Shown: positions 9,666 through 58,959, counted from the stretch's first letter. The stretch is 64,000 bases of DNA from an uncultured Candidatus Saccharibacteria bacterium (GCA_964646765.1 CAZYIA010000003.1:66815-130814); one strand, 5' to 3'. The notes: generated by a model not told the origin, from the letters alone. Made by a program: numbers and translations.

Positions 9666-9681
9666 ATAATAGAACTTTACT

Positions 9682-9718
9682 AAAAAAAACCAGAACAAAT
9701 CCTCGTTCTGGTTTTTTT
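9682..9718 (+). terminator. Rho-independent terminator after surface-protein gene 2
   Basis: A8-CCAGAAC-aaatcctc-GTTCTGG-T7. Confidence 0.8.
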
Positions 9719-9784
9719 AGTTTTACTAACCGTTACCTGAAACCGTGATATACTTCAAATACTAGTAATAACGTTTTTTTGCAT

Positions 9785-44677: not shown

Positions 44678-44702
44678 CAAAACCCCCAGAAAGGGGGTTT
44701 TG
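44678..44702 (+). terminator. Rho-independent terminator immediately after rplK
   Basis: AAAACCCCC-agaa-AGGGGGTTTTG. Confidence 0.75.
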
Positions 44703-44717: not shown

Positions 44718-45368
44718 ATGCAAAATCTCACCCAGCGCGATTATACAAAGCTTTTTATTTGTCTCACGCTCTATATTACGGCTCTTATTGCTTCAAATAC
44801 TTTAGGCATTAAGGTCATGCCATTTCTTTTTGGAACCCATCTTTCAGTTTCGGTATTTTACTTTCCAATCGTATTTTTGATGACTGACATTATCGGGGAA
44901 GTGTATGGTAAAGAGTGGGCTCGCCGCTTTGTGCTCGCTGGTTTTATTTCGGTGCTTGCCTTTCTCTTGTTTAATATTCTCTCAGTTATTACACCGTGGT
45001 CGGGGGCTGGGGCATGGGCGCATACTGCGTACAATACGCTCTACAGCGTTTCAATGCGAATCTCTGTTGCTTCAGTGCTCGCGTTCGTCATCGGCGAATA
45101 CCAAGATGTTTTTACTTTTTTCTTTTTTAAGGCAAAACAAGGAGACAAATATTTTTGGCTGCGTTCAAATCTTTCTAATATCTGGAGCCAATTTCTTGAC
45201 ACGGTGATCTTCATGACTGTGGCTTTTGCTGGGGTGTATTCTTGGCCAACACTTTTTATGATGATTATTCCGTGGTGGATATATAAAGTACTCATGGGTG
45301 TAGCTTTCACTCCGCTTTCATACCTAGGACTCGCCTTATTAAAGAGAGATGAAACCAAGCAAGCCTAA
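44718..45368 (+). CDS. YhhQ-family queuosine-precursor transporter
   Basis: FPIVFLMTDIIGEVYGKEWARRFV matches the YhhQ signature. Six TM helices. Confidence 0.7.
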   Translation: MQNLTQRDYTKLFICLTLYITALIASNTLGIKVMPFLFGTHLSVSVFYFPIVFLMTDIIGEVYGKEWARRFVLAGFISVLAFLLFNILSVITPWSGAGAWAHTAYNTLYSVSMRISVASVLAFVIGEYQDVFTFFFFKAKQGDKYFWLRSNLSNIWSQFLDTVIFMTVAFAGVYSWPTLFMMIIPWWIYKVLMGVAFTPLSYLGLALLKRDETKQA

Positions 45369-45873
45369 ATTAAAGACTCACTTTGTTGCCTATGTGGCAG
45401 CAAGTATAGATGGCCGCATTTCACTCGACGAAAAAACTGTGCCTGATTGGACAAGTAAAGAAGACTGGAAATTTTTTCAAAAAGGTCTTTCAAAAGCAGA
45501 TGCAGTTATTGCTGGCCGAAATACCTATCTAGCCGCACAAAAGAGGTTAGACAAAAGAAATACGTTTGTTTTTACAAGTACAGTGACGAAGTTAAGCAAA
45601 AAAGGTAACGTCATGTTTCTAAATCCGAAACATACAAACCTAAGTCAGCTGTTTCAAGAATATACAACCGTTGTTATTGTCGGTGGTGCACGAGTATATC
45701 AAACAATGCTTGAGCATAACATGCTTGATGAGCTGTTTGTTACTATCGAACCTTTAGTATTTGGCCGTGGCCAAACAATGTTTAGTAATGGAACAAAAAA
45801 TAGTAGACTCAAACTCAAAAATGTTCGAAAGTTAAATAAAAAAGGGACTCTACTTCTTCACTATGTACGTTAA
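45349..45873 (+). CDS. RibD C-terminal-domain / dihydrofolate-reductase-family protein
   Basis: HFVAYVAASIDGRISLDEKT...FKNAGLSKADAVIAGRNTY...VVIVGGARVYQ. Confidence 0.7.
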   Translation: MKPSKPKLKTHFVAYVAASIDGRISLDEKTVPDWTSKEDWKFFQKGLSKADAVIAGRNTYLAAQKRLDKRNTFVFTSTVTKLSKKGNVMFLNPKHTNLSQLFQEYTTVVIVGGARVYQTMLEHNMLDELFVTIEPLVFGRGQTMFSNGTKNSRLKLKNVRKLNKKGTLLLHYVR

Positions 45874-46561
45874 AGCAATTACAACAAAAGTTTTTCAGGA
45901 AAAAGAAAATCTTAACGATTTTATTCTCAAGTATCTTCCTCGTGTTTCTGAAGGTTCAGTTATTGTGGTGACCTCAAAAATTGTCGCCTTGGCTGAAGGG
46001 CGAACGGCTGTTTTTAAAAATCAAAAAGAAAAAGAAGTTCTCATCAAGAAAGAAAGTACTTTTGCCATCAAAACACCATTGGTGTGGCTCACTATTAAGG
46101 ATGGCACAGTTATGGCGAATGCTGGGGTAGACGAGTCAAATGCTCAGGGGAAAATTATTCTTTTGCCACAAGATAGTTTCCAGGCTGCAGAAAAACTGCG
46201 AATAGCACTTAAAAAGCATTACAAGGTTAAAAAGCTTGGCATCTTAATTACCGATTCTCGTCTTATGCCGCTCAGAGCTGGAGTGGTTGGTGTGGCGCTT
46301 GGGTACGCAGGATTTCAGGGATTAAAAAATTATGTTGGCAAAAAAGATATTTTTGGTCGGAAATTTAAATTTGAACAAACGGATATTGCTGATAGTTTAG
46401 CTACGGCCGCAGTGCTTACGATGGGTGAGGGTGCAGAACAAAAACCGTTAGCTCTTATAATAGAGGCTCCAGTTACCTTTACTAACCAAGTAAACAAAAA
46501 AGAGCTTCGCATTGATCCTAAGAAGGATCTCTATGCTCCTTTATTTAAGAAATTGAAATAA
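45863..46561 (+). CDS. CofE-like (F420-0:gamma-glutamyl ligase family) protein
   Basis: VIVVTSKIVALAEGR...GTVMANAGVDESNA...ITDSRLMPLRAGVVGVALGYAGF follows the CofE/F420_ligase fold. Confidence 0.65.
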   Translation: MYVKAITTKVFQEKENLNDFILKYLPRVSEGSVIVVTSKIVALAEGRTAVFKNQKEKEVLIKKESTFAIKTPLVWLTIKDGTVMANAGVDESNAQGKIILLPQDSFQAAEKLRIALKKHYKVKKLGILITDSRLMPLRAGVVGVALGYAGFQGLKNYVGKKDIFGRKFKFEQTDIADSLATAAVLTMGEGAEQKPLALIIEAPVTFTNQVNKKELRIDPKKDLYAPLFKKLK

Positions 46562-46563
46562 GT

Positions 46564-47568
46564 ATGGCAGTTCCACTACTTTCAAAAATTTTACCTCGCA
46601 TTGCTAAAAAAATCGGAGCTACAGTAGTTGTTGAACCAAAGTACGGTTATGTAGGTCAGATTATTTTTAAAAACGGCAAAAAGAAATATTTTCGGGTTTC
46701 TACTCTTGATATTAATACGGTTGGCTCTGTCGACATTGCTAAAGACAAAGGTTACGCCAAATTTTTTATGGAGCGAATGGGATATCCGGTAGCAGAAGGG
46801 AAAGTATTTTTTCGACCAAATTTTGCCAAAGCGATTGGTTCCCGAGAGAGTATTGAAGCTGCTTGGCGCTATGCTAAAAAACGAGGCGTACCGGTTATCG
46901 TTAAACCCAATAGTTTAAGTATGGGATTTGGTGTCGCTAAAGTTTCCACCAAGCAATCGTTTTTCCGTGCTGCGCGAGAAATTTTTAAAGCCGATCGCGT
47001 CATGCTTGTTGAAGAAGTGCTCATCGGTCGCGATTATCGCATTGTAGTGCTCGACAATAATGTTATTTCTGCCTACGAGCGCATGCCACTTGCAGTAATT
47101 GGTGATGGTAAAAGCAGTATCCGAGCGCTGCTAAAAAGATTACAGCAAGAGTTTGTGGCTAATGATCGTGATACAGTGATAAAAATGGACGACCCGCGAA
47201 TGCGCGAGGTACTTCTTCGGAGCAAAAAAACTTTTGCATCAGTTCCAAAGAAAGGGGAGCGCGTACAACTTCTTGATAACGCGAATCTTTCAACCGGAGG
47301 CAAAGCAATTGATGTAACTTCCGAGCTTCATCCTTCAATCAAAAAACTAGCCATCAAACTCACCAAAGATATGGGTCTCCGAATTTGCGGTGTTGATTTG
47401 ATGCTTTCGGAAAATGCAAAAGTTTCGCTCTCACAACAAAAGTACTGGGTTATTGAAGTAAACGGAGCTCCAGGACTTGACCACTATTTTGAAACAGGTA
47501 AGAAGCAACAAAAAATTGTTGAAGCGATGTATCTCAAAGTACTGAAAGCAATGGAGAAAGGCGCCTAG
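46564..47568 (+). CDS. ATP-grasp ligase (RimK/CofF/MptN-like)
   Basis: GVPVIVKPNSLSMGFGV (ATP-binding loop) ... RIVVLDNNVISAYERMP ... GVDLMLS ... EVNGAPG. Confidence 0.7.
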   Translation: MAVPLLSKILPRIAKKIGATVVVEPKYGYVGQIIFKNGKKKYFRVSTLDINTVGSVDIAKDKGYAKFFMERMGYPVAEGKVFFRPNFAKAIGSRESIEAAWRYAKKRGVPVIVKPNSLSMGFGVAKVSTKQSFFRAAREIFKADRVMLVEEVLIGRDYRIVVLDNNVISAYERMPLAVIGDGKSSIRALLKRLQQEFVANDRDTVIKMDDPRMREVLLRSKKTFASVPKKGERVQLLDNANLSTGGKAIDVTSELHPSIKKLAIKLTKDMGLRICGVDLMLSENAKVSLSQQKYWVIEVNGAPGLDHYFETGKKQQKIVEAMYLKVLKAMEKGA

Positions 47569-48158: not shown

Positions 48159-48210
48159 GCAAAGTATACCACTGTAGCCCCTCGTTCGCTCTTTTGCTAT
48201 GCTAGGAGCT

Positions 48211-48699
48211 ATGATGTCTGACGTACATAAACGCCCTTCTTGGGATGAATACTTTATGGGTATTGCCAAGATGGTGGCTACTCGAGCTACTTGTGATCGT
48301 GGCCGCTCTGGTGCTGTAACTGTAATGGGTCATCACATTTTAACTACCGGCTATGTTGGTGCGCCGCCAGGCATTGCGCATTGTGATGATGTTGGTCATG
48401 AAATGTCGACGGTTATTGATGACGCAGGGAATGAATCCAAACACTGTATCCGCTCAACCCATGCCGAACAGAATGCTATTGTTCAAGCTGCTCGAAATGG
48501 AGTCACCCTTAAAGGAGCAACACTCTATTGTAAAATGACTCCATGCTATACCTGCGCCAAACTTATTATTACTGCTGGTATTGCGCGCGTTGTTGCCGAA
48601 AAAGATTATCATGTCGGGAATCGTACGAAGGAGGTCTTTAAAGAAGCTGGTATCCAGTTTGACCTTTTAGGAGAAATAGAAGCATATCCAAATCAATAA
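48211..48699 (+). CDS. dCMP deaminase / CMP-dCMP-type zinc deaminase
   Basis: HAEQNAI...PCYTCAKLI zinc-ligand motifs (HAE plus PCxxC). Confidence 0.85.
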   Translation: MMSDVHKRPSWDEYFMGIAKMVATRATCDRGRSGAVTVMGHHILTTGYVGAPPGIAHCDDVGHEMSTVIDDAGNESKHCIRSTHAEQNAIVQAARNGVTLKGATLYCKMTPCYTCAKLIITAGIARVVAEKDYHVGNRTKEVFKEAGIQFDLLGEIEAYPNQ

Positions 48700-48702
48700 T
48701 AT

Positions 48703-49035
48703 ATGTCAGTTGATCTCAAACAACTTCAAAAAGAAGTAATGCGCAACAAAATAGAGAAGGGTTTTAATACTCAAGATATGGCTCTTGAATTTTGTCGTGC
48801 ACACGAGGAACTATCCGAGGCATTTTCTAAATATAATAAAGCTGAAGCAGGCGTGGCAGAGGAATTTGCCGATGTCGCCATTTTTCTCTTGGGAATGTGT
48901 GAAACCCTTGGGTACGATTTGGAGGCTGAATTGGTTCGAAAAATTGAGATAAATAAAAAACGAAAATACCGTAAGGAAAAATCCCCCGATGGTAAAGACG
49001 TTTTCATTCGCGTAAAAACCGATGAAGATCCATGA
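48703..49035 (+). CDS. MazG-like nucleotide pyrophosphohydrolase
   Basis: EExxEAxxK...EEFADVAIFLLGM pattern (EExxE / ExxD metal motifs). Confidence 0.7.
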   Translation: MSVDLKQLQKEVMRNKIEKGFNTQDMALEFCRAHEELSEAFSKYNKAEAGVAEEFADVAIFLLGMCETLGYDLEAELVRKIEINKKRKYRKEKSPDGKDVFIRVKTDEDP

Positions 49036-49639
49036 TCCTATTGAAATAATTACTTTCGATTTTTTCGGAGTGCTTTGTGCCCCAATGTACGGGGGATTAT
49101 TACGCGATTTATTTCCTGGTGATCAGGTCGCGTGGAGAAAATGGATGGACCTTGTTGAGTTTGAAGTTGATATCGGAACAGTCACTGAAGATGCTTTTAT
49201 TGAGCTTCTTTCTAAAGAGTGCGGTGTTCCTGCGCCAGAATTAAAGAATCGTTCCTATGAATACGCAAAACTGAATGAATCACTCTTTGAGATTATTGCC
49301 GACCTTAAGCATTACTATCGTGTTGGTCTTTTAACTAACGCTCCACGAAGTATCATTGAGACAGCACTTAAGGAAAAATTGGAGCTTTTTAATACGGTGA
49401 CCATTTCAGGTGATATTGGCATTATCAAGCCGCACGCGGAAATTTACGAACAGTACATTAAAGCTTGTGCGCTGCCGGCGGACAGAATATTTTTTACTGA
49501 TGATAACGTACGAAATGTTGCCGCAGCTCGAGTTTCAGGAATAATTGCAACCCAGTATCTCACCATTCCTCAGTTTTTACTTGATCTTGAGCACGAGGGT
49601 GTTGTATTCCCCCGATACCAAACACTCGAGAGTATCTAA
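49022..49639 (+). CDS. HAD-superfamily hydrolase
   Basis: ITFDFFGVL (motif I) ... LLTNAP (motif II) ... FFTDDNVRN (motif IV). Confidence 0.7.
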   Translation: MKIHDPIEIITFDFFGVLCAPMYGGLLRDLFPGDQVAWRKWMDLVEFEVDIGTVTEDAFIELLSKECGVPAPELKNRSYEYAKLNESLFEIIADLKHYYRVGLLTNAPRSIIETALKEKLELFNTVTISGDIGIIKPHAEIYEQYIKACALPADRIFFTDDNVRNVAAARVSGIIATQYLTIPQFLLDLEHEGVVFPRYQTLESI

Positions 49640-50127
49640 AGGTGCTTCTCGTAGATTACAAATGAATAGGGATAGGCATGAGCTTCATCTGGAGCGTAAT
49701 CGTCTCGGAAGGCCTCTTTCCATTCTTGGTCAATTTCAGGAAAGAAAGCATCTGCGTCAAAAGAACTATTAACACGGGTAATATATAGCCGGTTAGCATA
49801 GGGGAGAAAGAGTTTATAAATTTGTGCTCCTCCAATGACAAAAATTTCTTCATCAGAATCCTTAAAAAGATTCAACGCTTCTTCAACACTGCTCACATTT
49901 TCACATCCCGGAGCTTGATAATTTTCAGTACTTCGAGAGAGGACAATGTTGCGGCGGTTAGGAAGTGGTCGGCCAATAGATTCGAACGTTTTACGGCCCA
50001 TAATTACCGGGTGGCCACTAGTAGTCTCCCGAAAATGTCGCATATCTGCTGGCAAATCCCACAGAAGCTTATTATCTTTCCCGAGTTCATTATTTATACC
50101 AATGGCTGCAATCAGAGAGAGAATCAT
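49636..50127 (-). CDS. folA: Dihydrofolate reductase
   Basis: ISLIAAIGINNELGKDNKLLWDLPADMRHFRETTSGHPVIMGRKTFESIG...FVIGGAQIY. Confidence 0.9.
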   Translation of the reverse strand: MILSLIAAIGINNELGKDNKLLWDLPADMRHFRETTSGHPVIMGRKTFESIGRPLPNRRNIVLSRSTENYQAPGCENVSSVEEALNLFKDSDEEIFVIGGAQIYKLFLPYANRLYITRVNSSFDADAFFPEIDQEWKEAFRDDYAPDEAHAYPYSFVIYEKHL

Positions 50128-51838: not shown

Positions 51839-52777
51839 TTATACTGCAATCGGTGCACGAATCCCTTCATGCGACGTGTAGTTTTCGAGCGTGAAGTCAT
51901 CGATAGTAAAGTCGGCGATATTTTTTACATTTGGATTTAATTTCATTGTTGGCATTGGGTAGAGAGAATCTTTTCGTGAAAGTTGCAGTTTAGCCTGTTC
52001 GATATGATTTGAATACAAGTGAACATCACCACCGGTCCACACAAAATCTCCTGGTTCGAGGCCGGTTACTTGTGCAACCATCATAACTAAAAGGGCATAC
52101 GAGGCGATATTAAATGGAACACCCAAGAAGGTATCGCAACTTCGCTGATAGAGCTGGCATGAAAGTTTTCCGTTCGCTACATAGAACTGAAAGAAACAGT
52201 GACATGGCGGCAGTCCTGCTTTTGCCATCTCATCGATGTCGGCAACATTCCATGCTGAAACAATTAATCGGCGAGAGTTCGGATTATTTTTGATGTCCTC
52301 AATAACTTTTCCAAGTTGGTCGATGTGTTTACCGTTCGGTGCTGGCCAACTTCGCCACTGGTATCCATAAATTGGGCCAAGGTTGCCATATTCTTTGGCA
52401 AATGCCGGATCGGTTTTTATTTTCTCTACGAACCCTTTCATTTGGCTGTTCCAGTCTTCACCATTCACTTCAGGAATCGGGAGATTGTTTCTTTGAAGAT
52501 ATGCCTTAAATGGCCACTCGTTCCAGATAGGGACATTGTTGTCGGCCAAGTATTTTAAATTAGTGTCACCACGAACAAACCAAATGAGTTCGTGAATAAT
52601 TGATTTCAGCGGTACTTTTTTTGTAGTGAGTAGGGGGAAGCCTTTAGAAAGATCAAATCGCATCTGGTATCCAAAGATGCTTTTTGTGCCGGTACCGGTG
52701 CGGTCACTTTTATCCGTGCCCTCGTTTATAAGCTTTTCGAGGAGAGGGAGGTACTCTCGGTCAACGTGATATTCCAT
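51839..52777 (-). CDS. thyA: Thymidylate synthase (ThyA)
   Basis: [30 protein letters not shown]...[32 protein letters not shown]...[26 protein letters not shown]. Start at the internal Met (MEYHVD); the track ORF extends 14 codons further. Confidence 0.9.
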
Positions 52778-52916
52778 AGGCCGATTATAGGGCAAAGTGC
52801 ACTCTTTTTCCATTTGCAAAAAATATAGGAGGAGTACAATGAAAATAAGTCCGGTCCTGTACCGTCCCCAAACTGAATATTTGTTATAACCCTTTTAAAA
52901 ACCAAAACTTAAGCAC

Positions 52917-53234
52917 ATGAAAGCTAAATTACTCATTGTGACTGTAGCTCTGCTGTTATGCCAGCTCTGTCACGCACAGCAAAACGTTTTAAACGCATCA
53001 AGCGAAGTAAAGATTTACCCCAATCCTGCTGCCGGTACGTTATATGTAGTTGTAGATACTGCATCTAAAGTAACTATCTTTAACCTATTGGGAGAACCGC
53101 TGCCTGCTGCGAATGACAAATTAGTCTCTGCTGGTCGCACCGGCTTTGATTTTACTGAAGTACCGCAAGGGTACTATCTGGTGCAAGTACTTTCGAGAGA
53201 TGAAAAGTACACAAAACGAATTTTGAAGGAATAA
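52917..53234 (+). CDS. Small secreted protein consisting of a signal peptide plus a T9SS C-terminal sorting domain (Por_Secre_tail-like)
   Basis: SP MKAKLLIVTVALLLCQLCHA. Then VKIYPNPAAGTLYVVVDTASKVTIFNLLGEPL...DFTEVPQGYYLVQVLSRDEKYTKRILKE, matching the KIYPNPA ... IFNLLG ... G.YLV.V ... K.LK CTD pattern typical of Bacteroidota. Confidence 0.6.
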   Translation: MKAKLLIVTVALLLCQLCHAQQNVLNASSEVKIYPNPAAGTLYVVVDTASKVTIFNLLGEPLPAANDKLVSAGRTGFDFTEVPQGYYLVQVLSRDEKYTKRILKE

Positions 53235-53431
53235 TTTTTACCCAACATGTTTTAAAAGATTAGCCCTGGCTTCCCGTCAGGTGCTTTTCTTACCTGGATG
53301 AGGGTTGACAAATACATATGGTTGTGTTAATTTTTAACTACCATTCTCACTTATACATAATCGGGAATGACGATTATGGAAATCAGCGTACGCAGTTGTT
53401 GTGTTAGTTCTGATTAGCCATACACAACAAT

Positions 53432-54889
53432 ATGCAGAATATGCACCGAAGTGGTGCGCGCGGTAAAAATCCGACGCGTACCGGAACTTCGCAGGGAGGG
53501 CGAAAACCCCGCTCTAGCGGAGGACATTTTAATAGAGACGTCCAGCACCATGGAGGAGCGTTTCGGGCCGAAGGCCCACGACCATCATTTGGTCGTCGTA
53601 TTCACGTGCCTGGCGAAAGTCTTGGGCAGGGCAGCGAAAGCCGTCAATCAAAGCCGCAAGGCTTCCGTAGCCACGGAAGCAGTACTTTTCGTGCTCCGCG
53701 AACCGGAGGCTTTCGTGGCCGCTCGCAGGGCGGTTTTCGTGGAGGTGGAAGTCGTGGTGGTAATCGAGGCGGTGGTCGCAGTCGCGGCGAACGCATTGAT
53801 TACAGTCGTTTTATTCGTAAGGCAGAACTCGTAGAAGTAAAACCATACGTAGCCCAGCATTCATTTGTTGATTTTCCTTTTGACGCTCGTCTTGCAAAAA
53901 ATATAGAAAAGAAAGGATACGAAAAACCAACGCCAATTCAAGATCAAGCGATTCCATTTAGTTTGCTTGGCCGTGACATTTTTGGTTTGGCTAATACAGG
54001 AACAGGTAAAACAGCAGCCTTTCTCTTGCCGCTCATTCAAAAAGTATTAAACAGTCGCAAAGAACAAGTTCTTATTCTTGCGCCAACACGTGAACTTGCT
54101 CTCCAAATTGAAAAAGAATTTATTGAGTTTACCTACGGCACCAGCTTGTTTTCTGTGTCAGCTGTTGGTGGTATGCCAATTTTCCGTCAGATTACGAAAC
54201 TTAAGCGCGGAGTTTCCTTTGTTATTGGAACCCCAGGCCGTGTAAAAGATCTGATTGATCGCAAAGCACTTAATCTGGGAACTTTCAAATCAATCGTGCT
54301 CGATGAAGCTGATCGCATGCTTGATATGGGATTCCGTGATGACATGGAGTTTGTGATGAATAAAATGGGGGAAGATCGCCAAACGCTCTTTTTCTCAGCA
54401 ACAATCTCGCCAGACATTCGTAAACTTTCTGAAAAGTATCTCAAGGATCCTGAGTTTATTTCAGTTGTTGTTCGCGAAACTTCAAAGAATATTGATCAGG
54501 ATGTTGTCCGAGTTCTTTCTCGTGACAAGAAAATTGATCAGCTCCACGATATTCTTATCGGTGAGCAGGACAGCAAGATTCTTATCTTTAGTGAAACTAA
54601 GCGTGATGTTGATCGCCTTGCACGTGAATTAGTCGCTCGCGGTTTCCGCGTTGGGGCTATTCACGGCGACAAGCGTAACCGTGAACGTGTACGCACTCTT
54701 GAAGATTTCAAAACTGGCCGCATCGGTATTTTGATTGCTACCGACGTTGCTGCTCGCGGACTTGATATCCCAGATGTGACACATGTTATTAACTACGATG
54801 TGCCGCAAACGTACGATACCTACGTACACCGCATTGGCCGAACTGGCCGCGCAGGGAAGACTGGAAAAGCGTTAACCTTCGTTCATTAG
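53432..54889 (+). CDS. DEAD-box ATP-dependent RNA helicase with N-terminal Arg/Gly-rich (RGG) extension
   Basis: Q-motif/PTPIQ, GTGKT (motif I), PTRELA, DEAD (LDEADRMLDMGF), SAT, HRIGRTGRAG. The N-terminal approximately 120 aa are RGG/FRG repeats. Confidence 0.9.
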   Translation: MQNMHRSGARGKNPTRTGTSQGGRKPRSSGGHFNRDVQHHGGAFRAEGPRPSFGRRIHVPGESLGQGSESRQSKPQGFRSHGSSTFRAPRTGGFRGRSQGGFRGGGSRGGNRGGGRSRGERIDYSRFIRKAELVEVKPYVAQHSFVDFPFDARLAKNIEKKGYEKPTPIQDQAIPFSLLGRDIFGLANTGTGKTAAFLLPLIQKVLNSRKEQVLILAPTRELALQIEKEFIEFTYGTSLFSVSAVGGMPIFRQITKLKRGVSFVIGTPGRVKDLIDRKALNLGTFKSIVLDEADRMLDMGFRDDMEFVMNKMGEDRQTLFFSATISPDIRKLSEKYLKDPEFISVVVRETSKNIDQDVVRVLSRDKKIDQLHDILIGEQDSKILIFSETKRDVDRLARELVARGFRVGAIHGDKRNRERVRTLEDFKTGRIGILIATDVAARGLDIPDVTHVINYDVPQTYDTYVHRIGRTGRAGKTGKALTFVH

Positions 54890-54894
54890 GACTA

Positions 54895-54930
54895 AAGTCA
54901 AAAAGCCGCCTAAAGGCGGCTTTTTGACTT
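54895..54930 (+). terminator. Rho-independent terminator
   Basis: AAGTCAAAAAGCCGCC-taaa-GGCGGCTTTTTGACTT, a perfect 16-bp stem. Confidence 0.8.
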
Positions 54931-55003
54931 TATCGGTATTTTTAGTACAGTTCGGATAACCTATAAAAACATTAAATATTTTTTTTAACCTCAATCAATT
55001 TTT

Positions 55004-55378
55004 ATGAAGCCACAAAACAGCAATGGCGTTACTTTGGTTAGCTATATTCGCCAAATAGCTATTTTACTTAGCAATGTTCTTTACTTATTCGATGCTCCCG
55101 AGCGCGAAAAACATAAGGACCATAGCGAGCCCCCGAAAGATAAGACCTTAGGCGGCAATATTCCGCACGCATCATGGGTATTACCTATCATCATCAATAT
55201 CCTTCGGAGCGTACCCGCCCCTGACATGGAGCAGGAACTAAAGTTCCTAACTGCCGACCTCGACCTGACCGTGGAGGATAATTTCAAAAAGTTGCAGGAT
55301 TTTGTGGCTAAGCTCAAAGCGTTTAACAGCGCCTTTTCGCAAACCAGCGACAAGTATGAAGAGCATATCCACGATTAA
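55004..55378 (+). CDS. Hypothetical protein in a compositionally atypical islet
   Basis: 124-aa ORF with GC-richer codons than its neighbours, followed by hairpin GTGCAG...CTGCAC plus a T run (55407-55446). No family recognised. Confidence 0.3.
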   Translation: MKPQNSNGVTLVSYIRQIAILLSNVLYLFDAPEREKHKDHSEPPKDKTLGGNIPHASWVLPIIINILRSVPAPDMEQELKFLTADLDLTVEDNFKKLQDFVAKLKAFNSAFSQTSDKYEEHIHD

Positions 55379-55546
55379 CCAATTCAGCCGGTTACAAAAT
55401 GAGAAGGTGCAGCTAAACTTTACGGTTTATCTGCACTTTTTCTTTTTATCTTTTTCAGTGTATGATGGGGGCACGTAACCTCGTTCAGGCTTATGGTATA
55501 ACGATTCCACAACGCTTTTCCTATTATTTCTTAAGCTTATTTTGCT

Positions 55547-56803
55547 ATGCACTATCTCGAACAAGACCCTGAAATTTTCGCCGCTTTAAAAGGTGAAGAA
55601 AAGCGCCAAAAAGAAGGCCTCGAACTTATTCCTTCGGAAAACTACGTTTCCAAAGCCGTGCTTGAAGCGAACGGTTCTATTTTCACCAACAAATACTCAG
55701 AAGGATATCCAGGTCGCCGTTACTATGGTGGACAAGAATTTACTGATGTTGTTGAGCGTTTAGCAATTGAGCGCATTTGTAAACTCTTTAACTGTAAATT
55801 TGCCAACGTTCAGCCGCACTCAGGTGCACCAGCAAACTTAGCTGTGTATGCCGCACTCCTTGAACCAGGCGACACTGTGCTTGGTATGGATCTCTCACAT
55901 GGCGGTCACTTAACGCACGGTCACCCAATGACGCTGCCTGCTAAGATCTACAAATTCGTCACCTACAAGATGAAAGATCCTGACACAGGTGAAATTGATT
56001 ACGATCATCTCCGTCAAATGACACTTGAACACAAACCAAAAATTATTTTGGCTGGTTTTTCTGCATACCCTCGCACTCTCGACTACAAAAAATTTGTTGA
56101 GATTGCTAAAGAAGTTGGGGCAATTACGATGGCTGACATGGCACACATCGCAGGTTTGATTGCTGGTAAGGCGCTCCGCAATCCATTTGATGATGGTTTT
56201 GATATCATCACGTCAACTACTCATAAAACTCTTCGTGGTCCACGCGGGGGGATCATTCTCACTCGAGAAAATGAAGAGATCGCCAAGAAAATCGACAAAT
56301 CTATTTTCCCTGGAATTCAAGGTGGTCCACACATGCACACTATCGCTGCGAAGGCCGTTGCCTTCGGCGAAGCATTAACGCCTGCGTATCAAACCTACGT
56401 ACAGCAGATTTTGAAAAATGCCAAGGCAATGGAAGCTGTGCTCAAAGAGAAAGGTGTTCGGATGATTGGTGGGGGAACCGATAACCACCTTATCCTCGCC
56501 GACGTATTTGGCTCACTTGGTGTTACTGGAAAAGAAGCGCAAACAGTACTCGACGAAGTTGGAATTACACTCAACATGAACTCAATTGCTGGTGACACGC
56601 GCAAGCCGCTCGATCCATCAGGTATTCGTTTTGGCACTCCAGCTATCACTACTCGTGGCTTTAAAGAAAAAGAATGTGCCGAAGTTGCCGAACTCTTGAT
56701 TGAAACACTCAAAAATAAAGACGACGCAGAAAAGAAAAAAGAAATTCGGGCAAAAGTTTTGGCACTTGCTGAAAAATTCCCGATTCCGGAGAAGTTTGTG
56801 TAG
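55547..56803 (+). CDS. glyA: Serine hydroxymethyltransferase
   Basis: YYGGQEFTDVVERLAIERI...VQPHSGAPANLAVY...LSHGGHLTHG...TTHKTLRGPRGG (PLP lysine region). Confidence 0.9.
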   Translation: MHYLEQDPEIFAALKGEEKRQKEGLELIPSENYVSKAVLEANGSIFTNKYSEGYPGRRYYGGQEFTDVVERLAIERICKLFNCKFANVQPHSGAPANLAVYAALLEPGDTVLGMDLSHGGHLTHGHPMTLPAKIYKFVTYKMKDPDTGEIDYDHLRQMTLEHKPKIILAGFSAYPRTLDYKKFVEIAKEVGAITMADMAHIAGLIAGKALRNPFDDGFDIITSTTHKTLRGPRGGIILTRENEEIAKKIDKSIFPGIQGGPHMHTIAAKAVAFGEALTPAYQTYVQQILKNAKAMEAVLKEKGVRMIGGGTDNHLILADVFGSLGVTGKEAQTVLDEVGITLNMNSIAGDTRKPLDPSGIRFGTPAITTRGFKEKECAEVAELLIETLKNKDDAEKKKEIRAKVLALAEKFPIPEKFV

Positions 56804-56807
56804 CTCT

Positions 56808-57506
56808 ATGTCGGCTACGAAGAAAAAAGGAAAATTAATTGTTATTGATGGAACTGACGGCTCGGGTAAAGCAACTCAAGCTGCGCTTTTGGCTGCGCAT
56901 TTAAAGAAAGCAGGCTATAAAGTAGCAACCATTGATTTTCCGCAATATGGCGATAATTTTTTTGGTGAATTTCTTGGACGTTGTCTGTCGCGTCAGTACT
57001 ATAACTTCGTGAAGGTCCACCCTAAAATTGCTTCAGTTTTGTATGCAGCAGACCGTTGGGAGTCAAAAGAAAAAATTGAAGGTTGGCTTAACAAAGGTTA
57101 CATCGTGATTGCTGATCGCTATGTGTCAGCAAACCAAATTCACCAAGGTGGAAAAATAACGAGCACTAAGAAGCGCCGAGACTTTTTGAAGTGGCTCGAT
57201 GAGATGGAATACAACGTATTTAAAATTCCACGACCAAACCTGGTACTATACTTGTCACTACCACTTACTACCATGCGCTCTCTGATTAAAGAGCGCAATA
57301 AAAAAGAAGTCCGTGCCTATCTTGGCAAGGGGAAGGACGTACACGAAAAAGACATGGCGCACTTAGCGAATGCTCGCGAGAGTGCACTCAAGTTAGTGAA
57401 AGAGCTCAACAATTTCAAAAAAATTGACTGTGCTCCTGAAGGTAACCTTTTACCACCACCAGTTATTCACGAAAAAGTTTTTGAAGAAGTCTCAAAAATT
57501 ATATGA
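56808..57506 (+). CDS. tmk: Thymidylate kinase (dTMP kinase)
   Basis: P-loop IVIDGTDGSGKATQ, DRY-like ADRYVSANQIHQGG, and a lid region. Confidence 0.85.
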   Translation: MSATKKKGKLIVIDGTDGSGKATQAALLAAHLKKAGYKVATIDFPQYGDNFFGEFLGRCLSRQYYNFVKVHPKIASVLYAADRWESKEKIEGWLNKGYIVIADRYVSANQIHQGGKITSTKKRRDFLKWLDEMEYNVFKIPRPNLVLYLSLPLTTMRSLIKERNKKEVRAYLGKGKDVHEKDMAHLANARESALKLVKELNNFKKIDCAPEGNLLPPPVIHEKVFEEVSKII

Positions 57507-58018
57507 ACGCACGCATTCCAGTCGTTAATGAACAAGATGAAGTAATTGGCTACCGTATTCGCCGAGAATTGCAACCTGGCGATATTTTTCGAGTCACTGG
57601 TCTTTGGATTTATGATACCGAAGGTACTATTTTACTAGCTCGTCGAGCGGAAACTAAAGCGCTCCATCCAGGTTTATGGGCCCTTGGCGTTGCCGGGACT
57701 GTTGAAGAAGGGGAAACATATGACAGTAATATCGTGAAAGAAATGGGAGAAGAAATTGGCCTTACAGGTTACACCCCAACGTTCTTAAATAAAGAATTAC
57801 GCGACACTCCAGTGAAGGGGCTTCGTCGGTTTGCTTCGCACTACGCGGTGACTATCCCGCACGATTACCCATTTAAATTAAAGGAAGATGAAGTGGCAGA
57901 AGTTAAATGGTTCACCCCATCTGAAATTGACCAAGCAGTAACCGAGCATCCTGAATTATTTGTGCCAACATTTGTTTTGTACTATAAAGATTTTCTCTAT
58001 GCGGATTCCCATCGTTAA
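57503..58018 (+). CDS. NUDIX-family hydrolase (paralog 1)
   Basis: IPVVNEQDEVIGY...LLARRAETKALHPGLWALGVAGTVEEGETYDSNIVKEMGEEIGL (Nudix box). Confidence 0.7.
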   Translation: MNARIPVVNEQDEVIGYRIRRELQPGDIFRVTGLWIYDTEGTILLARRAETKALHPGLWALGVAGTVEEGETYDSNIVKEMGEEIGLTGYTPTFLNKELRDTPVKGLRRFASHYAVTIPHDYPFKLKEDEVAEVKWFTPSEIDQAVTEHPELFVPTFVLYYKDFLYADSHR

Positions 58019-58553
58019 TGAACAAGATGAAATAATTGGAGAGGAGGAGCGCGCAGTCATTCACCGTGATGGTTTACGACATCGGGAGATTCACGTATGG
58101 CTCGTTACTCCTCAAAAAGAATTTATCTTCCAAAAACGAGGTCCTCATCAAGATACCTGGCCCGGATATTTAGACGTTACCGTTGGGGGACATGTTGATA
58201 CTAAAACTGAATCATACGAAGAGTGTGCGAAACGAGAACTGTATGAGGAGACAGGGACGAAACTACCGATTACTCTTATCATAAAGCGTTATTCAGAAAG
58301 TTATGATCCAAATACTCAAACCAAGAACCACGCTTTTCGTGCCGTATTCGGGGCGATTTATACGGGAGCATTACATGATTTAAAAGTTGAAGAGGGTAAT
58401 GGTCAAGGTTTTATAAAATATTCCCTCGAAGAATTGAAATCTCTATCAGAAGAAGATAGAAAGAAATTTATTCCGCGATATTTTACCGAAGCTTATTTTG
58501 ATTTATTTCAGAAAATTATAACTACTCTTTTTAGTCATGAATCTCAAAATTAA
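57999..58553 (+). CDS. NUDIX-family hydrolase (paralog 2, tandem duplicate)
   Basis: IPIVNEQDEIIGE...FQKRGPHQDTWPGYLDVTVGGHVDTKTESYEECAKRELYEETG (canonical Nudix box). Confidence 0.7.
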   Translation: MRIPIVNEQDEIIGEEERAVIHRDGLRHREIHVWLVTPQKEFIFQKRGPHQDTWPGYLDVTVGGHVDTKTESYEECAKRELYEETGTKLPITLIIKRYSESYDPNTQTKNHAFRAVFGAIYTGALHDLKVEEGNGQGFIKYSLEELKSLSEEDRKKFIPRYFTEAYFDLFQKIITTLFSHESQN

Positions 58554-58959
58554 AAAACTGAAACCGGAAGCTAAACTTCCTCGCTATGCGCATCCTGGCG
58601 ATGTTGGTTTGGATTTGTTTGCCATGGAAACAGTAACGATTGCTCCAGGCGAGCACTATCGTTTTTGGCACGGTTTCGCGCTTGAATTTCCAGAAGGTTT
58701 CGCCGCGTGTGTGATGGATAAATCGAGCATTTCAAAAGCAGGGCTTAAAACCATGGGCGGTGTATTTGATGCTGGCTACAGAGGTGAATACAATACACAC
58801 TTAGTAAACCTTGGAAAAGAAGCGTACACATTTGAAGCAGGTGATAAAGTTGCTCAATTAGTTATTTTCCCAGTTGCACAGGCCAACATTGAAGAGGTGA
58901 GTGAGCTCACAGAATCATCTCGTGGTGAGGGAAGCTTTGGTTCCACAGGGAAAAAATAA
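58537..58959 (+). CDS. dut: dUTP diphosphatase
   Basis: dUTPase motifs AHPGDVGLDL, GVFDAGYRGE, RxxQLV and the C-terminal SSRGEGSFGSTG motif V. Confidence 0.9.
   Translation: MNLKIKKLKPEAKLPRYAHPGDVGLDLFAMETVTIAPGEHYRFWHGFALEFPEGFAACVMDKSSISKAGLKTMGGVFDAGYRGEYNTHLVNLGKEAYTFEAGDKVAQLVIFPVAQANIEEVSELTESSRGEGSFGSTGKK

What the first reader, a model, noticed from the sequence alone, without database searches (positions are those of the whole stretch)
45349..47568. RibD_C (DHFR-like), CofE-like and ATP-grasp (CofF/RimK-like) gene triad in a genome with no F420 biosynthesis context
CofE (gamma-glutamyl ligase) and CofF/MptN-type ATP-grasp (alpha-glutamyl ligase) are the two enzymes that poly-glutamylate F420 and methanopterin in archaea and actinobacteria. 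Homologs of both sit adjacent here, directly downstream of a dihydrofolate-reductase-family (RibD_C) gene. No cofC/D/G/H genes are visible in the window. The same window contains pterin-4a-carbinolamine dehydratase, folA, thyA and glyA. One inference is that this pair glutamylates a folate or pterin-like cofactor, possibly a FolC-independent route, or otherwise modifies a salvaged cofactor. That would be an undescribed cofactor-tailoring module.
Basis: inference. Interest (0 to 1): 0.65.

Follow-up and report, generated by a model that had tools for sequence, protein, structure and literature searches.

The report
Folate uptake-and-trapping operon in Patescibacteria
The three genes are real and belong to a four-gene operon that most likely imports, reduces and glutamylates scavenged folate in a tiny-genome bacterium; the "F420 ligase" is a relative of the known Chlamydia FolC substitute, and the attached ATP-grasp enzyme is an undescribed folate-linked partner.

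Summary
Three tightly packed, co-oriented ORFs sit at 45349-47568. They encode a DHFR-family reductase, a CofE-family ligase and an ATP-grasp ligase. No F420 or FolC gene is present in the window.

- The CofE-like protein scores best on NCBIfam TIGR04132, "putative folate metabolism gamma-glutamate ligase". I take this (from memory) to be the FolC2/CT611 family, whose Chlamydia member complements E. coli folC. A FolC-independent glutamylation route is therefore already described.
- The "RibD_C" protein is a Thermotoga-type DHFR homologue.
- The ATP-grasp is not CofF/MptN/RimK-like. It belongs with the cyanophycin-synthetase G domain and the GshF ATP-grasp domain.

Across about 100 related loci, the CofE-like gene follows a small membrane protein in 45 of 57 loci. 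This is Vut_1 or an unrelated ECF-S-like family, and once a Vut_1::ligase fusion. Folate and thymidylate genes surround it. The ATP-grasp recurs next to it in several gene orders, and also next to SHMT, FolD and 5-formyl-THF cyclo-ligase.

Best reading: a folate salvage and retention module. The ATP-grasp is probably a tail-modifying amino-acid ligase, which is inferred and untested.

The parts
44683..44701 (+). GC hairpin followed by a T-run (CCCCC-AGAAA-GGGGG-TTTT), lying between the rplK stop (44659-44661) and the transporter ATG. It is a possible terminator or attenuator separating the module from rplK.
   Evidence: Read directly from the sequence. The consensus scan reports the same hairpin on the minus strand. 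Function is not shown.
44718..45368 (+). Vut_1 / YhhQ-family (COG1738) membrane transporter. Proposed importer of folate or a folate-related compound. Its 3' end overlaps the next ORF by 20 nt.
   Evidence: PF02592 at 4.5e-39. TIGR00697 at 131.7 bits. The listed ORF starts at TTG 44667, but the ATG at 44718 gives an N-terminus (MQNLTQRDY) that matches homologues such as L001 (MQTLTERDY). It lies immediately upstream of the CofE-like gene in 30 of 57 surveyed loci. It is fused to the ligase in P0277.
45349..45873 (+). It is a second DHFR-like gene alongside the canonical folA.
   Evidence: RibD_C 66.3 bits and DHFR_1 50.4 bits. Best PDB match is T. maritima DHFR 1cz3/1d1g, E 6e-20 over residues 16-172. 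The catalytic Asp (W-T-S-x-E-D), G-x-N-T-Y and GG motifs are kept across 22 homologues. It is present next to the ligase in 16 of 57 loci. One ligase::reductase fusion, P0369, was seen on a single contig.
45863..46561 (+). CofE-superfamily gamma-glutamyl ligase of the FolC2-like clade. Proposed folyl(poly)glutamate synthase.
   Evidence: PF01996 at 1.5e-37. TIGR04132 at 216.6 bits (cut-off 350) against CofE TIGR01916 at 138.3 bits (cut-off 180.65). It is 35% identical to Af-CofE, with NAGxDxSN, the TD(S/T) Asp and MGEG kept but the chromophore-contact segment changed. Genomic context is shown.
46564..47568 (+). Stand-alone ATP-grasp ligase of the cyanophycin-synthetase G-domain / GshF clade. 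Proposed amino-acid (probably glutamate) ligase acting on the folate glutamyl tail.
   Evidence: NCBIfam: cyanophycin synthetase 179.5, GshAB 151.4, RimK family 62.9, MptN 48.6, CofF 28 bits. PDB sequence hits are GshAB 3ln7 (4.3e-30) and CphA 7lgm/7wac. The AF2 model has pLDDT 84. Foldseek gives CphA1 6e-23 and GshF 1e-21, against Ddl 2.6e-12 and RimK 6.6e-11. It is linked to the ligase in 15 of 37 loci and, independently, to folate genes.
48199..50127 (.). Adjacent thymidylate and folate genes: dCMP deaminase (48199-48699 +), MazG-like (48703-49035 +), HAD phosphatase (49022-49639 +) and canonical FolA (49636-50127 -).
   Evidence: Pfam. The same neighbours recur in related loci.
51839..58959 (.). 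Rest of the island: ThyA (51839-52819 -), DEAD helicase (53432-54889 +), SHMT (55547-56803 +), thymidylate kinase (56700-57506 +), NUDIX proteins (57503-58018 and 57960-58553 +) and dUTPase (58537-58959 +).
   Evidence: Pfam.

Best explanation
The triad is the enzymatic part of a four-gene operon: Vut_1 transporter, Thermotoga-type DHFR homologue, FolC2-like CofE-family ligase, ATP-grasp ligase. It serves folate salvage and retention in a Patescibacteria (CPR) genome.

Proposed mechanism:
1. The small membrane protein imports a folate or folate-related vitamer. This step is inferred.
2. The DHFR-like enzyme reduces it to the di- or tetrahydro form. The family assignment is shown; the substrate is inferred.
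3. The CofE-like enzyme adds gamma-linked glutamate(s), presumably nucleotide-triphosphate-dependent as in CofE. This traps the cofactor in the cell and makes it a good substrate for ThyA, SHMT and FolD. The family and context are shown. The activity is inferred from the FolC2 precedent.
4. The ATP-grasp enzyme, via an acyl-phosphate, ligates an amino acid, most likely glutamate, to a free carboxylate of the glutamyl tail. This would give an alpha-linked cap or extension, analogous in role to CofF and MptN but from a different ATP-grasp clade. This is the most speculative step.

Sub-confidences:
- The module is folate-related: about 0.8.
- The CofE-like protein is a folate gamma-glutamyl ligase: about 0.75.
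- The membrane proteins import a folate-type compound: about 0.55.
- The ATP-grasp acts on the folate tail: about 0.35-0.4.
For: **Family**
- The ligase's best model is TIGR04132, "putative folate metabolism gamma-glutamate ligase". It scores 216.6 bits, against 138.3 for CofE.
- Ten representatives of different clades of the same group all show the same ranking: 165-272 bits against 92-150.
- All 130 full-length representatives carry D-S-x-x-x-P-x-R where CofE has D-T-N-G-R-C-F-R. That segment contacts the F420 chromophore in Af-CofE (G153-C155; PMC10861534).

**Precedent**
- The CofE homologue CT611/FolC2 complements E. coli folC (PMC1971073; PMC4161248).

**Context**
- In a Ca. Nomurabacteria contig (L004) the ligase follows FolP (293 bits) and a CADD/CT610-like protein (194.7 bits, cut-off 200). 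These are the Chlamydia cluster partners.
- Elsewhere it is directly followed by FolA or SHMT (L043, L053, L006, L005, L081).
- It usually sits in a block of dCMP deaminase, MazG-like, FolA and ThyA genes.

**Transporter coupling**
- 45 of 57 loci have Vut_1 (30) or one of two related 6-TM proteins (15) directly upstream.
- Those 6-TM proteins are not homologous to Vut_1 (hhalign probability below 2%). Their model's best PDB matches are ECF S-components, including FolT.
- A Vut_1::ligase fusion (P0277) occurs on 5 contigs from at least two samples.
- The Vut_1-ligase pair persists at 40% identity in an unrelated context.

**ATP-grasp**
- It lies beside the ligase in at least five arrangements: Vut1-DHFR-lig-ATPg, memA-DHFR-lig-ATPg, ATPg-memA-DHFR-lig, ATPg-lig-DHFR and ATPg-5FCL-lig.
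- Without the ligase it lies next to DCD-SHMT-FolD (L092). In L095 it lies about 3.6 kb from a DHFR-DCD-ThyA block, with GTP-cyclohydrolase-like genes in between.

**Absence of alternatives**
- No F420 genes, FolC or riboswitch are present in the window.
Against: - No biochemical data exist for any of the four proteins.
- The ligase is below the TIGR04132 trusted cut-off (216.6 against 350). I could not obtain a Chlamydia FolC2 sequence to place it in a tree.
- NCBIfam would name the transporter a queuosine-precursor transporter (TIGR00697, 131.7 bits against cut-off 50.95). I could not check the genome for tgt.
- Whole-genome absence of folC could not be tested.
- Many surveyed loci come from related Paceibacteria that share secE-nusG-rplK synteny, so the raw counts overstate independence.
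- The ATP-grasp and the DHFR-like gene are optional (about 40% and 28% of loci), so they are accessories.
- The nearest relatives of the ATP-grasp act on non-folate substrates, and nothing identifies its substrate directly.
- The ECF-S-like fold match is weak (E 0.12-1.3, model pLDDT 70.7).
- The ligase::DHFR fusion rests on one short contig.
Confidence: 0.6

Rival explanations
1. The ATP-grasp is folate-related but does a different ligation from tail capping. Candidates are adding the first glutamate to (dihydro)pteroate (DHFS-like), making or re-using p-aminobenzoyl-glutamate, or ATP-dependent formate activation onto THF through a formyl-phosphate, as in PurT-type ATP-grasp enzymes.
For: The ATP-grasp sits beside C1-interconversion enzymes (FolD, SHMT, 5-formyl-THF cyclo-ligase) even where the ligase is not adjacent. 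ATP-grasp chemistry fits any carboxylate-amine ligation (PMC3249071).
Against: Its sequence and fold neighbours are peptide and amino-acid ligases (CphA G domain, GshF, Ngg synthetase), not PurT, PurK or PurD (GARS_A only 24.8 bits). Its commonest partner is the glutamate ligase. The de novo-type locus L004 (FolP, CADD, ligase) has no ATP-grasp, so DHFS activity there must come from the CofE-like enzyme.
Confidence: 0.2
2. The ATP-grasp has nothing to do with folate. It makes a small peptide or polymer (glutathione-like or cyanophycin-like) or modifies a protein. Its position is genome-compaction hitch-hiking.
For: NCBI annotates homologues as "cyanophycin synthetase". The best PDB and HMM matches are CphA and GshAB. 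It is absent from about 60% of loci that carry the ligase.
Against: It is only the G-domain-sized part (334 aa), with no CphA N or M domains and no GshA domain. It recurs beside folate genes in at least five different gene orders and in unrelated contexts, which hitch-hiking does not explain.
Confidence: 0.15
3. The Vut_1 protein is a queuosine-precursor (preQ0, preQ1 or queuine) transporter, as annotated. The CofE-like enzyme modifies that or another imported non-folate compound.
For: TIGR00697 "queuosine precursor transporter" scores 131.7 bits, above its cut-off of 50.95. The only characterised COG1738 members transport Q precursors (PMC5372724).
Against: No glutamylated Q precursor is known (my own knowledge). 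The slot is alternatively filled by an unrelated ECF-S-like protein. The ligase is found next to, and once fused with, DHFR-type reductases, and next to FolP, CADD, FolA and SHMT. No preQ1 riboswitch is present. The E. coli-type YhhQ model scores only 59 bits against a cut-off of 252.
Confidence: 0.07
4. The ligase is a genuine CofE acting on salvaged F420-0 or F0-derived cofactor, as public annotation says ("coenzyme F420-0:L-glutamate ligase").
For: It matches PF01996. The databases use this name. A nitroreductase-family gene lies 10 kb upstream.
Against: It is below the CofE equivalog cut-off (138.3 against 180.65) and scores higher on the folate model. The chromophore-contact motif is changed in the whole clade. 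No F420 biosynthesis or typical F420-dependent enzyme families appear in the window or in about 100 neighbourhoods.
Confidence: 0.03

Closest known systems
FolC2 (Chlamydia trachomatis CT611; COG1478; NCBIfam TIGR04132 'putative folate metabolism gamma-glutamate ligase')
   Same: A CofE-superfamily protein of about 235 aa in an organism without F420 genes. It is clustered with folate genes. In L004 these include FolP and a CADD/CT610-like protein, as in Chlamydia. TIGR04132 is the best-scoring model over the full length (positions 1-236 of 241).
   Different: It scores 216.6 bits, below the 350-bit trusted cut-off. Most CPR loci lack de novo folate genes and instead pair the ligase with a transporter, which points to salvage rather than synthesis. 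It also has DHFR-like and ATP-grasp partners that are not described for Chlamydia.
CofE / FbiB N-domain (F420-0:L-glutamate ligase; PDB 2g9i, 2phn, 7uld)
   Same: Same fold family. It is 35% identical to Af-CofE over the core. The metal- and nucleotide-site motifs NAG(I/V)D(A/E)SN, the Asp of TD(T/S), and MGEG are conserved.
   Different: It is below the CofE cut-off. The segment that contacts the deazaflavin (Af-CofE N152-C155, "TNGRC") is "SRLMP" here and D-S-x-x-x-P in the whole clade. The C-terminal R234 region is not alignable. There is no F420 context.
CofF, MptN, MyfA/MyfB (ATP-grasp glutamate ligases that tailor F420, tetrahydromethanopterin and methylofuran)
   Same: An ATP-grasp ligase genetically coupled to a C1 or redox coenzyme pathway, and in the CofE/CofF case to a CofE-type gamma-ligase. 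The proposed role, adding an alpha-linked amino acid to a coenzyme's glutamyl tail, is the same (PMC3249071; PMC8141765).
   Different: It is not a member of their RimK-type subfamily: CofF 28 bits, MptN 48.6 and RimK family 62.9, and RimK ranks only 34th by fold. If the role is the same, it arose in a different ATP-grasp clade.
Cyanophycin synthetase G domain (CphA1/CphA2) and the GshF (GshAB) ATP-grasp domain
   Same: These are the closest relatives by HMM (179.5 and 151.4 bits), by PDB sequence search (E 4e-30 to 1e-22) and by fold (Foldseek 6e-23 and 1e-21, TM about 0.70). From my own knowledge of these families, all of them extend a peptide's C-terminal alpha-carboxylate with an amino acid.
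   Different: It is a stand-alone 334-aa protein without the CphA N and M domains or the GshA domain. Its genomic context is folate and thymidylate metabolism, not nitrogen storage or thiol metabolism.
Thermotoga maritima DHFR (PDB 1cz3/1d1g) and stand-alone RibD_C proteins (YyaP 2gd9, 3jtw)
   Same: The best PDB match is TmDHFR (E 6e-20, near full length). The catalytic Asp27 equivalent and the NADPH-site motifs are conserved.
   Different: It coexists with a canonical FolA 3.8 kb away (203 bits on DHFR_1), so it is not the sole DHFR. Its substrate (folate, DHF or another pterin) is unknown.
YhhQ/QPTR (COG1738, Vut_1) queuosine-precursor transporters, and ECF S-components such as FolT
   Same: The transporter is a clear Vut_1 member. 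The alternative membrane protein family has an ECF-S-like predicted fold. Both are small vitamin-type carriers.
   Different: The context is folate enzymes, not Q genes or preQ1 riboswitches. A folate role for COG1738 is not mentioned in the Q-transporter papers I read. No ECF energising module was seen next to the ECF-S-like genes.

Membership tests
FolC2 / TIGR04132 (CofE-type folate gamma-glutamate ligase) | Scores above the curated NCBIfam cut-off for TIGR04132 (350 bits) | tested here: not met
   216.6 bits, E 3.1e-64, full-length alignment. It is the best-scoring model but below the cut-off. Ten diverse clade representatives score 165-272 bits, and none reaches 350.
FolC2 / TIGR04132 (CofE-type folate gamma-glutamate ligase) | Closer to the folate-type model than to CofE proper | tested here: met
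   TIGR04132 at 216.6 bits against TIGR01916 at 138.3, PRK13293 at 130.5 and PRK13294 at 112. The same ranking holds in 10 of 10 representatives.
FolC2 / TIGR04132 (CofE-type folate gamma-glutamate ligase) | Clusters with folate biosynthesis or usage genes in a genome without F420 genes | tested here: met
   Window: two DHFR-type genes, ThyA and SHMT, and no cof genes. L004: FolP, CADD-like, ligase, FolA. Other loci are shown.
FolC2 / TIGR04132 (CofE-type folate gamma-glutamate ligase) | Replaces FolC (no COG0285 FolC in the genome) and has DHFS/FPGS activity | not testable with these tools
   Only 64 kb of a 208-kb contig, plus flanks of other loci, could be read, and no FolC was found in them. 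The activity needs complementation or an enzyme assay.
FolC2 / TIGR04132 (CofE-type folate gamma-glutamate ligase) | Phylogenetic grouping with Chlamydia CT611 | not tested
   A CT611 sequence could not be retrieved.
CofE (coenzyme F420-0:L-glutamate ligase, TIGR01916) | Scores above the equivalog cut-off (180.65 bits) | tested here: not met
   138.3 bits.
CofE (coenzyme F420-0:L-glutamate ligase, TIGR01916) | Conserved deazaflavin-contact segment (Af-CofE G153-C155 within D-T-N-G-R-C) and the stacking residues F92 and R234 | tested here: not met
   The window protein has D-S-R-L-M-P. All 130 representatives have D-S-x-x-x-P. F92 aligns with Leu here, and with Tyr in the alignment consensus. 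The R234 region is not aligned.
CofE (coenzyme F420-0:L-glutamate ligase, TIGR01916) | Co-occurrence with F420 biosynthesis genes (cofC, cofD, cofG/H or fbiC) | tested here: not met
   None is present in the window or in the Pfam-annotated neighbourhoods. The rest of the genome was not examined.
CofF / MptN / RimK-type alpha-L-glutamate ligases | Membership of the RimK subfamily (TIGR00768 cut-off 143.4; MptN cut-off 350; CofF cut-off 300) | tested here: not met
   62.9, 48.6 and 28 bits. RimK structure 5zct ranks only 34th (E 6.6e-11), against CphA1 at 6e-23.
Cyanophycin synthetase (TIGR02068) | Full three-domain architecture (N, G and M domains, about 870 aa) and a score above 850 bits | tested here: not met
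   Only residues 52-323 align, to model positions 204-471 of 862. The score is 179.5 bits and the protein is 334 aa.
ATP-grasp superfamily | ATP-grasp fold with conserved nucleotide and Mg-binding motifs | tested here: met
   Multiple ATP-grasp Pfam hits. The AF2 model has pLDDT 84 and 563 PDB matches at E <= 0.001; the 50 listed are all ATP-grasp enzymes. E298 and N300 in "IEVNGAPG" are invariant in 33 homologues.
Dihydrofolate reductase family (DHFR_1 / RibD_C fold) | Pfam gathering scores passed, and the catalytic acid and NADPH-binding glycine motifs conserved | tested here: met
   RibD_C 66.3 bits (cut-off 24.1) and DHFR_1 50.4 bits (cut-off 25). TmDHFR hit at E 6e-20. The Asp27 equivalent, G-x-N-T-Y and GG motifs are conserved. 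DHFR activity itself is not testable here.
Queuosine precursor transporter (TIGR00697 / COG1738) | Scores above the family cut-off | tested here: met
   131.7 bits against 50.95. The E. coli-type YhhQ model PRK11212 scores only 59.4 against 252.
Queuosine precursor transporter (TIGR00697 / COG1738) | Association with Q genes (tgt, queF and others) or preQ1 riboswitches | tested here: not met
   No Rfam riboswitch is present in the window. No Q genes appear in the window or in the annotated neighbourhoods. Genome-wide presence of tgt was not testable.

The most novel reading that the evidence does not exclude
Two linked claims:
1. The CphA-G/GshF-like ATP-grasp is a folylpolyglutamate alpha-ligase, or another tail-branching ligase. 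To my knowledge it would be the first gene assigned to the alpha-linked folate glutamylation reported biochemically in E. coli in 1986.
2. The Vut_1 proteins and the unannotated ECF-S-like family are the missing folate importers of Patescibacteria.

Together these would define a FolC-independent "import, reduce, gamma-glutamylate, alpha-cap" cofactor-capture pathway. In some lineages the transporter is physically fused to the ligase.
Probability: 0.3. Interest if true: 0.75.

Novelty: new variant of a known kind. Interest (0 to 1): 0.58.

Why it matters
**Misannotation.** Patescibacteria make up a large share of bacterial diversity. They keep folate-dependent enzymes such as FolA, GlyA and FolD. 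A 2025 survey of 4,581 CPR genomes reported no folate transporter and did not mention FolC (PMC11974145). If this reading is right, public annotation mislabels three of the four genes:
- "coenzyme F420-0:L-glutamate ligase";
- "queuosine precursor transporter", the name NCBIfam rules would assign to the transporter here;
- "cyanophycin synthetase".

**Pathway holes.** The module would fill both the uptake and the polyglutamylation holes in CPR folate metabolism.

**New assignments.** It would extend FolC2 from Chlamydia to a huge radiation. It would give the COG1738 family a second substrate class. It would also provide a concrete, clonable candidate for a folate-tail ATP-grasp ligase.

**Testability.** All four genes are small and testable in E. 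coli mutants.

Tried and rejected
As a result I could not fetch Chlamydia CT611 by its published primer sequence, and no FolC2, CofE or FbiB tree could be built.
- The search of 50%-identity representatives did not knowingly reach Chlamydia-type sequences: the few of the 150 best that carry a taxon name are CPR.
- Pfam and NCBIfam gave nothing for the alternative membrane proteins memA and memB. hhalign against Vut_1 was negative. The fold match to ECF S-components is only suggestive, at E of 0.12 or worse.
- Rfam found no THF, preQ1 or ZTP riboswitch. The promoter and terminator scan was at background level.
- Literature searches found no paper that links cofE/COG1478 or folylpolyglutamate synthesis with CPR. 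The 'folC' + Patescibacteria search returned 46 papers; none of the 10 listed concerns CPR folate glutamylation, and I did not open them.
- I considered that the nitroreductase gene at 34337-34963 might be an FbiB-C-domain analogue. I dropped this because it lies 10 kb away and has no linkage in other loci.
- I considered that the pterin-4a-carbinolamine dehydratase might be part of the module. I rejected this because it is 28 kb away and absent from related neighbourhoods.

Full report
**1. What is there**

The window has 40-48% GC and reads as a small-genome bacterium. Exact and near-exact copies of the proteins occur on contigs that NCBI and JGI label Patescibacteria or Paceibacterota.

At the reported coordinates there are three co-oriented ORFs:
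- 45349-45873 (174 aa): Pfam RibD_C 4.3e-18 and DHFR_1 2.6e-13.
- 45863-46561 (232 aa): F420_ligase 1.5e-37.
- 46564-47568 (334 aa): several ATP-grasp families.

The first two overlap by 11 nt. The third starts 2 nt after the stop of the second.

It is a Vut_1/YhhQ-family membrane protein whose 3' end overlaps the reductase ORF by 20 nt. Its listed ORF starts at a TTG (44667). However, the ATG at 44718 gives the N-terminus shared with homologues. It lies 17 nt after a CCCCC-AGAAA-GGGGG-TTTT hairpin that follows the rplK stop.

So the unit is a four-gene operon downstream of secE-nusG-rplK.

**2. The rest of the window**

I scanned essentially every ORF of at least 110 aa against Pfam. The region from 44.7 to 59 kb is a thymidylate and folate island. 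It holds the four-gene module, dCMP deaminase, a MazG-like protein, a HAD phosphatase, canonical FolA, NUDIX proteins, ThyA, SHMT, thymidylate kinase and dUTPase.

Upstream are a class I ribonucleotide reductase and dihydroorotate dehydrogenase. A pterin-4a-carbinolamine dehydratase exists at 17253-17597, 28 kb away.

The window contains no FolC/Mur-ligase, no FolP/K/B/E and no CofC/D/G/H. Rfam finds only two tRNAs and no riboswitch.

**3. The CofE-like protein**

Against NCBIfam its best hit is TIGR04132, "putative folate metabolism gamma-glutamate ligase". The score is 216.6 bits (E 3e-64, full length) against a cut-off of 350. The CofE equivalog TIGR01916 scores 138.3 against a cut-off of 180.65.

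An exhaustive search of 1.84 billion cluster representatives found 2,034 relatives. I took one representative from each of ten clades among the best 150. All ten score best on TIGR04132 (165-272 bits) and lower on CofE (92-150).

Compared with Archaeoglobus CofE (35% identity), the NAGxDxSN, TD(S/T) and MGEG motifs are kept. The segment that lines the deazaflavin in the CofE-F420 complexes differs. In Af-CofE this is G153-C155 within D-T-N-G-R-C (PMC10861534). Here it is D-S-R-L-M-P, and it is D-S-x-x-x-P in all 130 full-length representatives. The C-terminal region carrying R234 does not align.

This is the pattern expected of a ligase with the same chemistry and a different cofactor head-group.

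The precedent is explicit. De Crecy-Lagard et al. predicted that the COG1478 member clustered with chlamydial folate genes replaces FolC. They showed that CT611 complements E. coli folC mutant SF4 (PMC1971073). It is now called FolC2 (PMC4161248).

**4. Context across genomes**

A metagenome scan seeded with an alignment returned 80 loci. Six more came from other look-ups. I located homologues of the window's proteins in these loci by tblastn.

Of 57 loci with at least 1.4 kb upstream of the ligase:
- 30 have Vut_1 immediately upstream on the same strand.
- 15 have one of two related 6-TM proteins (memA or memB) in the same slot.
- 16 have the DHFR-like gene between the membrane protein and the ligase.

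The memA and memB proteins have no Pfam or NCBIfam match. They are homologous to each other (hhalign E 1e-39) and not to Vut_1 (probability below 2%).

memA is a widespread Patescibacteria family. One member carries a UniRef name that begins "ECF tran". Its AlphaFold model is of moderate quality (pLDDT 70.7). Its best PDB matches are ECF S-components: BioY, RibU, an S-component of 4HUQ, and two folate-specific FolT chains. The E-values are weak, at 0.12-1.3.

Two unrelated small vitamin-type carriers alternate in the same slot. This is the classic signature of a salvage operon whose first step is uptake.

Further evidence for the coupling:
- One clade encodes a Vut_1::ligase fusion (P0277, 463 aa), seen on five contigs from at least two samples.
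- The overlapping Vut_1-ligase pair persists at 40% identity in an unrelated (ATP synthase) context.

**5. Folate partners of the ligase**

- In a Ca. Nomurabacteria contig (L004) the slot between rplK and the ligase holds dihydropteroate synthase (TIGR01496, 293 bits) and a CADD/CT610-family protein (TIGR04305, 194.7 bits, cut-off 200). dCMP deaminase, a MazG-like protein and FolA follow the ligase. FolP, CADD and FolA are also the partners of FolC2 in Chlamydia.
- Elsewhere the ligase is directly followed by FolA (L006, L043, L053) or by SHMT (L005, L081).
- In loci with at least 4 kb on both sides, FolA and ThyA-like genes each occur in 16 of 31.
- One protein (P0369) fuses the ligase to a RibD_C/DHFR domain and sits two genes from SHMT. 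It rests on a single 4.7-kb contig.

**6. The reductase**

Its best solved relative is the genuine DHFR of Thermotoga maritima (1cz3/1d1g, E 6e-20, near full length). Stand-alone RibD_C proteins come next.

Across 22 homologues, three features align with TmDHFR and with the window's own FolA:
- the Asp27 equivalent of TmDHFR (W-T-S-x-E-D);
- the G-x-N-T-Y motif;
- the GG motif.

It coexists with a canonical FolA here and in many loci. In ATPg-ligase-DHFR loci (L087, L089), however, no other DHFR lies within 6 kb. Its exact substrate is unknown. Reducing salvaged oxidised folate or DHF ahead of glutamylation is the simplest role.

**7. The ATP-grasp**

It is not CofF-, MptN- or RimK-like in any specific sense.
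- NCBIfam scores: cyanophycin synthetase 179.5, GshAB 151.4, N-acetylglutaminylglutamine synthetase 97.6, RimK family 62.9, MptN 48.6, CofF 28.
- PDB sequence hits: GshAB (4e-30) and CphA1/2.
- AlphaFold model (pLDDT 84): it matches CphA1 (6e-23, TM 0.70-0.72) and GshF (1e-21), about ten orders of magnitude better than Ddl or RimK.

It corresponds to just the G-domain-sized unit. From my own knowledge of these families, its relatives all add an amino acid to the C-terminal alpha-carboxylate of a peptide. In GshF that peptide is gamma-glutamyl-linked.

Genomically it is an accessory, in the module in 15 of 37 loci. Its linkage survives rearrangement, in these orders:
- Vut1-DHFR-ligase-ATPg (the window);
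- memA-DHFR-ligase-ATPg;
- ATPg-memA-DHFR-ligase;
- ATPg-ligase-DHFR;
- ATPg, then 5-formyl-THF cyclo-ligase, convergent with the ligase.

Starting from ATP-grasp homologues whose ligase is not adjacent gave two further contexts:
- In a Liptonbacteria contig it sits at the end of a DCD-SHMT-FolD row.
- In a Kaiserbacteria contig it sits next to GTP-cyclohydrolase-II-like genes, with DHFR-DCD-ThyA a few kb further on.

So its tie to folate and C1 metabolism does not depend on the ligase.

**8. Mechanism proposed**

Four steps:
1. **Import by Vut_1 or the ECF-S-like carrier.** Inferred.
2. **Reduction by the TmDHFR-like enzyme.** The family is shown; the substrate is inferred.
3. **Gamma-glutamylation by the FolC2-like ligase.** This retains the cofactor and improves its use by ThyA, SHMT and FolD. 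Polyglutamylation as a retention device is established knowledge (PMC1971073 background). The activity here is inferred.
4. **Modification of the tail by the ATP-grasp.** Most likely this is an alpha-linked glutamate.

Precedents for the fourth step as a kind of reaction:
- CofF on gamma-F420-2 and MptN on H4MPT (PMC3249071).
- MyfA and MyfB on methylofuran (PMC8141765).
- Alpha linkages in the distal tail of E. coli folates, made by an enzyme preparation described in 1986 (PMC1971073 and its reference 14). To my knowledge the gene for that activity was never identified.

Step 4 is the weakest link. Rival roles remain open: DHFS-like activity, pABA-Glu ligation, formate activation, or an unrelated peptide.

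**9. Comparison and novelty**

The gamma-ligase is a new, and very large, branch of a known kind (FolC2). It is not an undescribed route. Strict TIGR04132 membership is not met by score, and a tree with CT611 could not be made.

In the literature I could search, the following appear not to be described:
- the coupling of this ligase to Vut_1 or ECF-S-like carriers, including a fusion;
- a TmDHFR-like second reductase in the same module;
- a CphA-G/GshF-type ATP-grasp as a folate-linked partner.

A 2025 CPR folate study found no folate transporter in its CPR genomes and does not mention folC. Public names for the ligase and ATP-grasp ("coenzyme F420-0:L-glutamate ligase", "cyanophycin synthetase"), and the NCBIfam-derived name for the transporter ("queuosine precursor transporter"), are probably misleading.

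**10. Limits**

- There is no biochemistry.
- Whole-genome absence of folC, cof genes and tgt was not testable.
- Many surveyed loci are related Paceibacteria with shared synteny, so the counts are not independent events. The independent support comes from the distinct arrangements, contexts and fusions listed above.
- The ECF-S-like fold assignment is tentative.

**Verdict.** This is a real, conserved operon. Its novelty is overstated for the CofE-like gene, and the ATP-grasp subfamily is mislabelled. The module as a whole is a new variant of folate salvage and polyglutamylation, and it gives a testable candidate for a folate-tail ATP-grasp ligase.

Noticed in passing
L009:5778-6485, L017:6300-7001 and homologues (e.g. 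L014:3279-3986, L055:5762-6490): An unannotated family of 6-TM proteins of about 230-240 aa (two subtypes, memA and memB). It has no Pfam or NCBIfam hit. It is 70-94% conserved across Patescibacteria. It replaces Vut_1 directly upstream of the DHFR-like and CofE-like genes. Its predicted fold weakly resembles ECF S-components, including FolT.
   Followed up: partly
P0277 (L097:6001-7392; L098): A natural fusion of a Vut_1 transporter domain (residues 45-203) with the CofE-like ligase (224-422). It is found on five contigs from at least two samples, after RNase HII and before a divergently oriented Fur gene.
   Followed up: partly
window 44683-44701: A strong GC hairpin with a T-run lies between the rplK stop and the transporter start. 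rplK is followed here by the folate module rather than by rplA, so the usual rplKA arrangement is broken.
   Followed up: no
window 47565-48269 (-): A 234-aa ORF convergent with the ATP-grasp gene. It overlaps that gene's stop by 4 nt and the dCMP-deaminase ORF by about 70 nt. It has one hydrophobic segment and a Cys-rich C-terminal part, and no family hit. A similarly placed 198-aa unannotated gene exists in a related contig.
   Followed up: no
window 17253-17597 (+) and 17609-18607 (+): Pterin-4a-carbinolamine dehydratase (Pterin_4a, 109.8 bits) lies immediately upstream of a VKOR-family membrane protein. No aromatic amino-acid hydroxylase was seen in the window.
   Followed up: no
window 34337-34963 (+): A stand-alone nitroreductase-family protein (88.9 bits) lies 10 kb upstream of the module. 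I noted it because the C-domain of FbiB is nitroreductase-like. No linkage was seen in other loci.
   Followed up: partly
window 1682-12082 (+) and 58981-62100 (+): Three consecutive very large proteins (1410, 1255 and 767 aa) carry C-terminal PG_binding_1 domains, with GLUG, laminin-G or Big_5 modules in the first two and chitobiase/Fn3-associated domains in the third. A separate 1039-aa protein has a Peptidase_S74 (endosialidase chaperone) domain. They are probable cell-surface or host-attachment proteins.
   Followed up: no
L095:7124-9993 (Kaiserbacteria contig SICE01000002.1): The ATP-grasp homologue is followed by two GTP-cyclohydrolase-II-family genes, one with a GTP_CH_N domain, and two unannotated genes, just before DHFR-DCD-ThyA. 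This may be an unusual pterin-branch route, comparable with the use of RibA for folate synthesis in Chlamydia.
   Followed up: no
L100:3898-7792: A more distant CofE-like protein (P0311, 271.6 bits on TIGR04132) sits in a flagellated, probably non-CPR organism. It lies between a DNA photolyase, an enzyme class that uses either MTHF or a deazaflavin antenna, and a short-chain dehydrogenase.
   Followed up: no
L013:3785-6319: This contig carries two rplK copies, two dCMP-deaminase copies and an ATP-grasp gene between them, ahead of Vut1 and the ligase. It is either a local duplication or a metagenomic mis-assembly.
   Followed up: no
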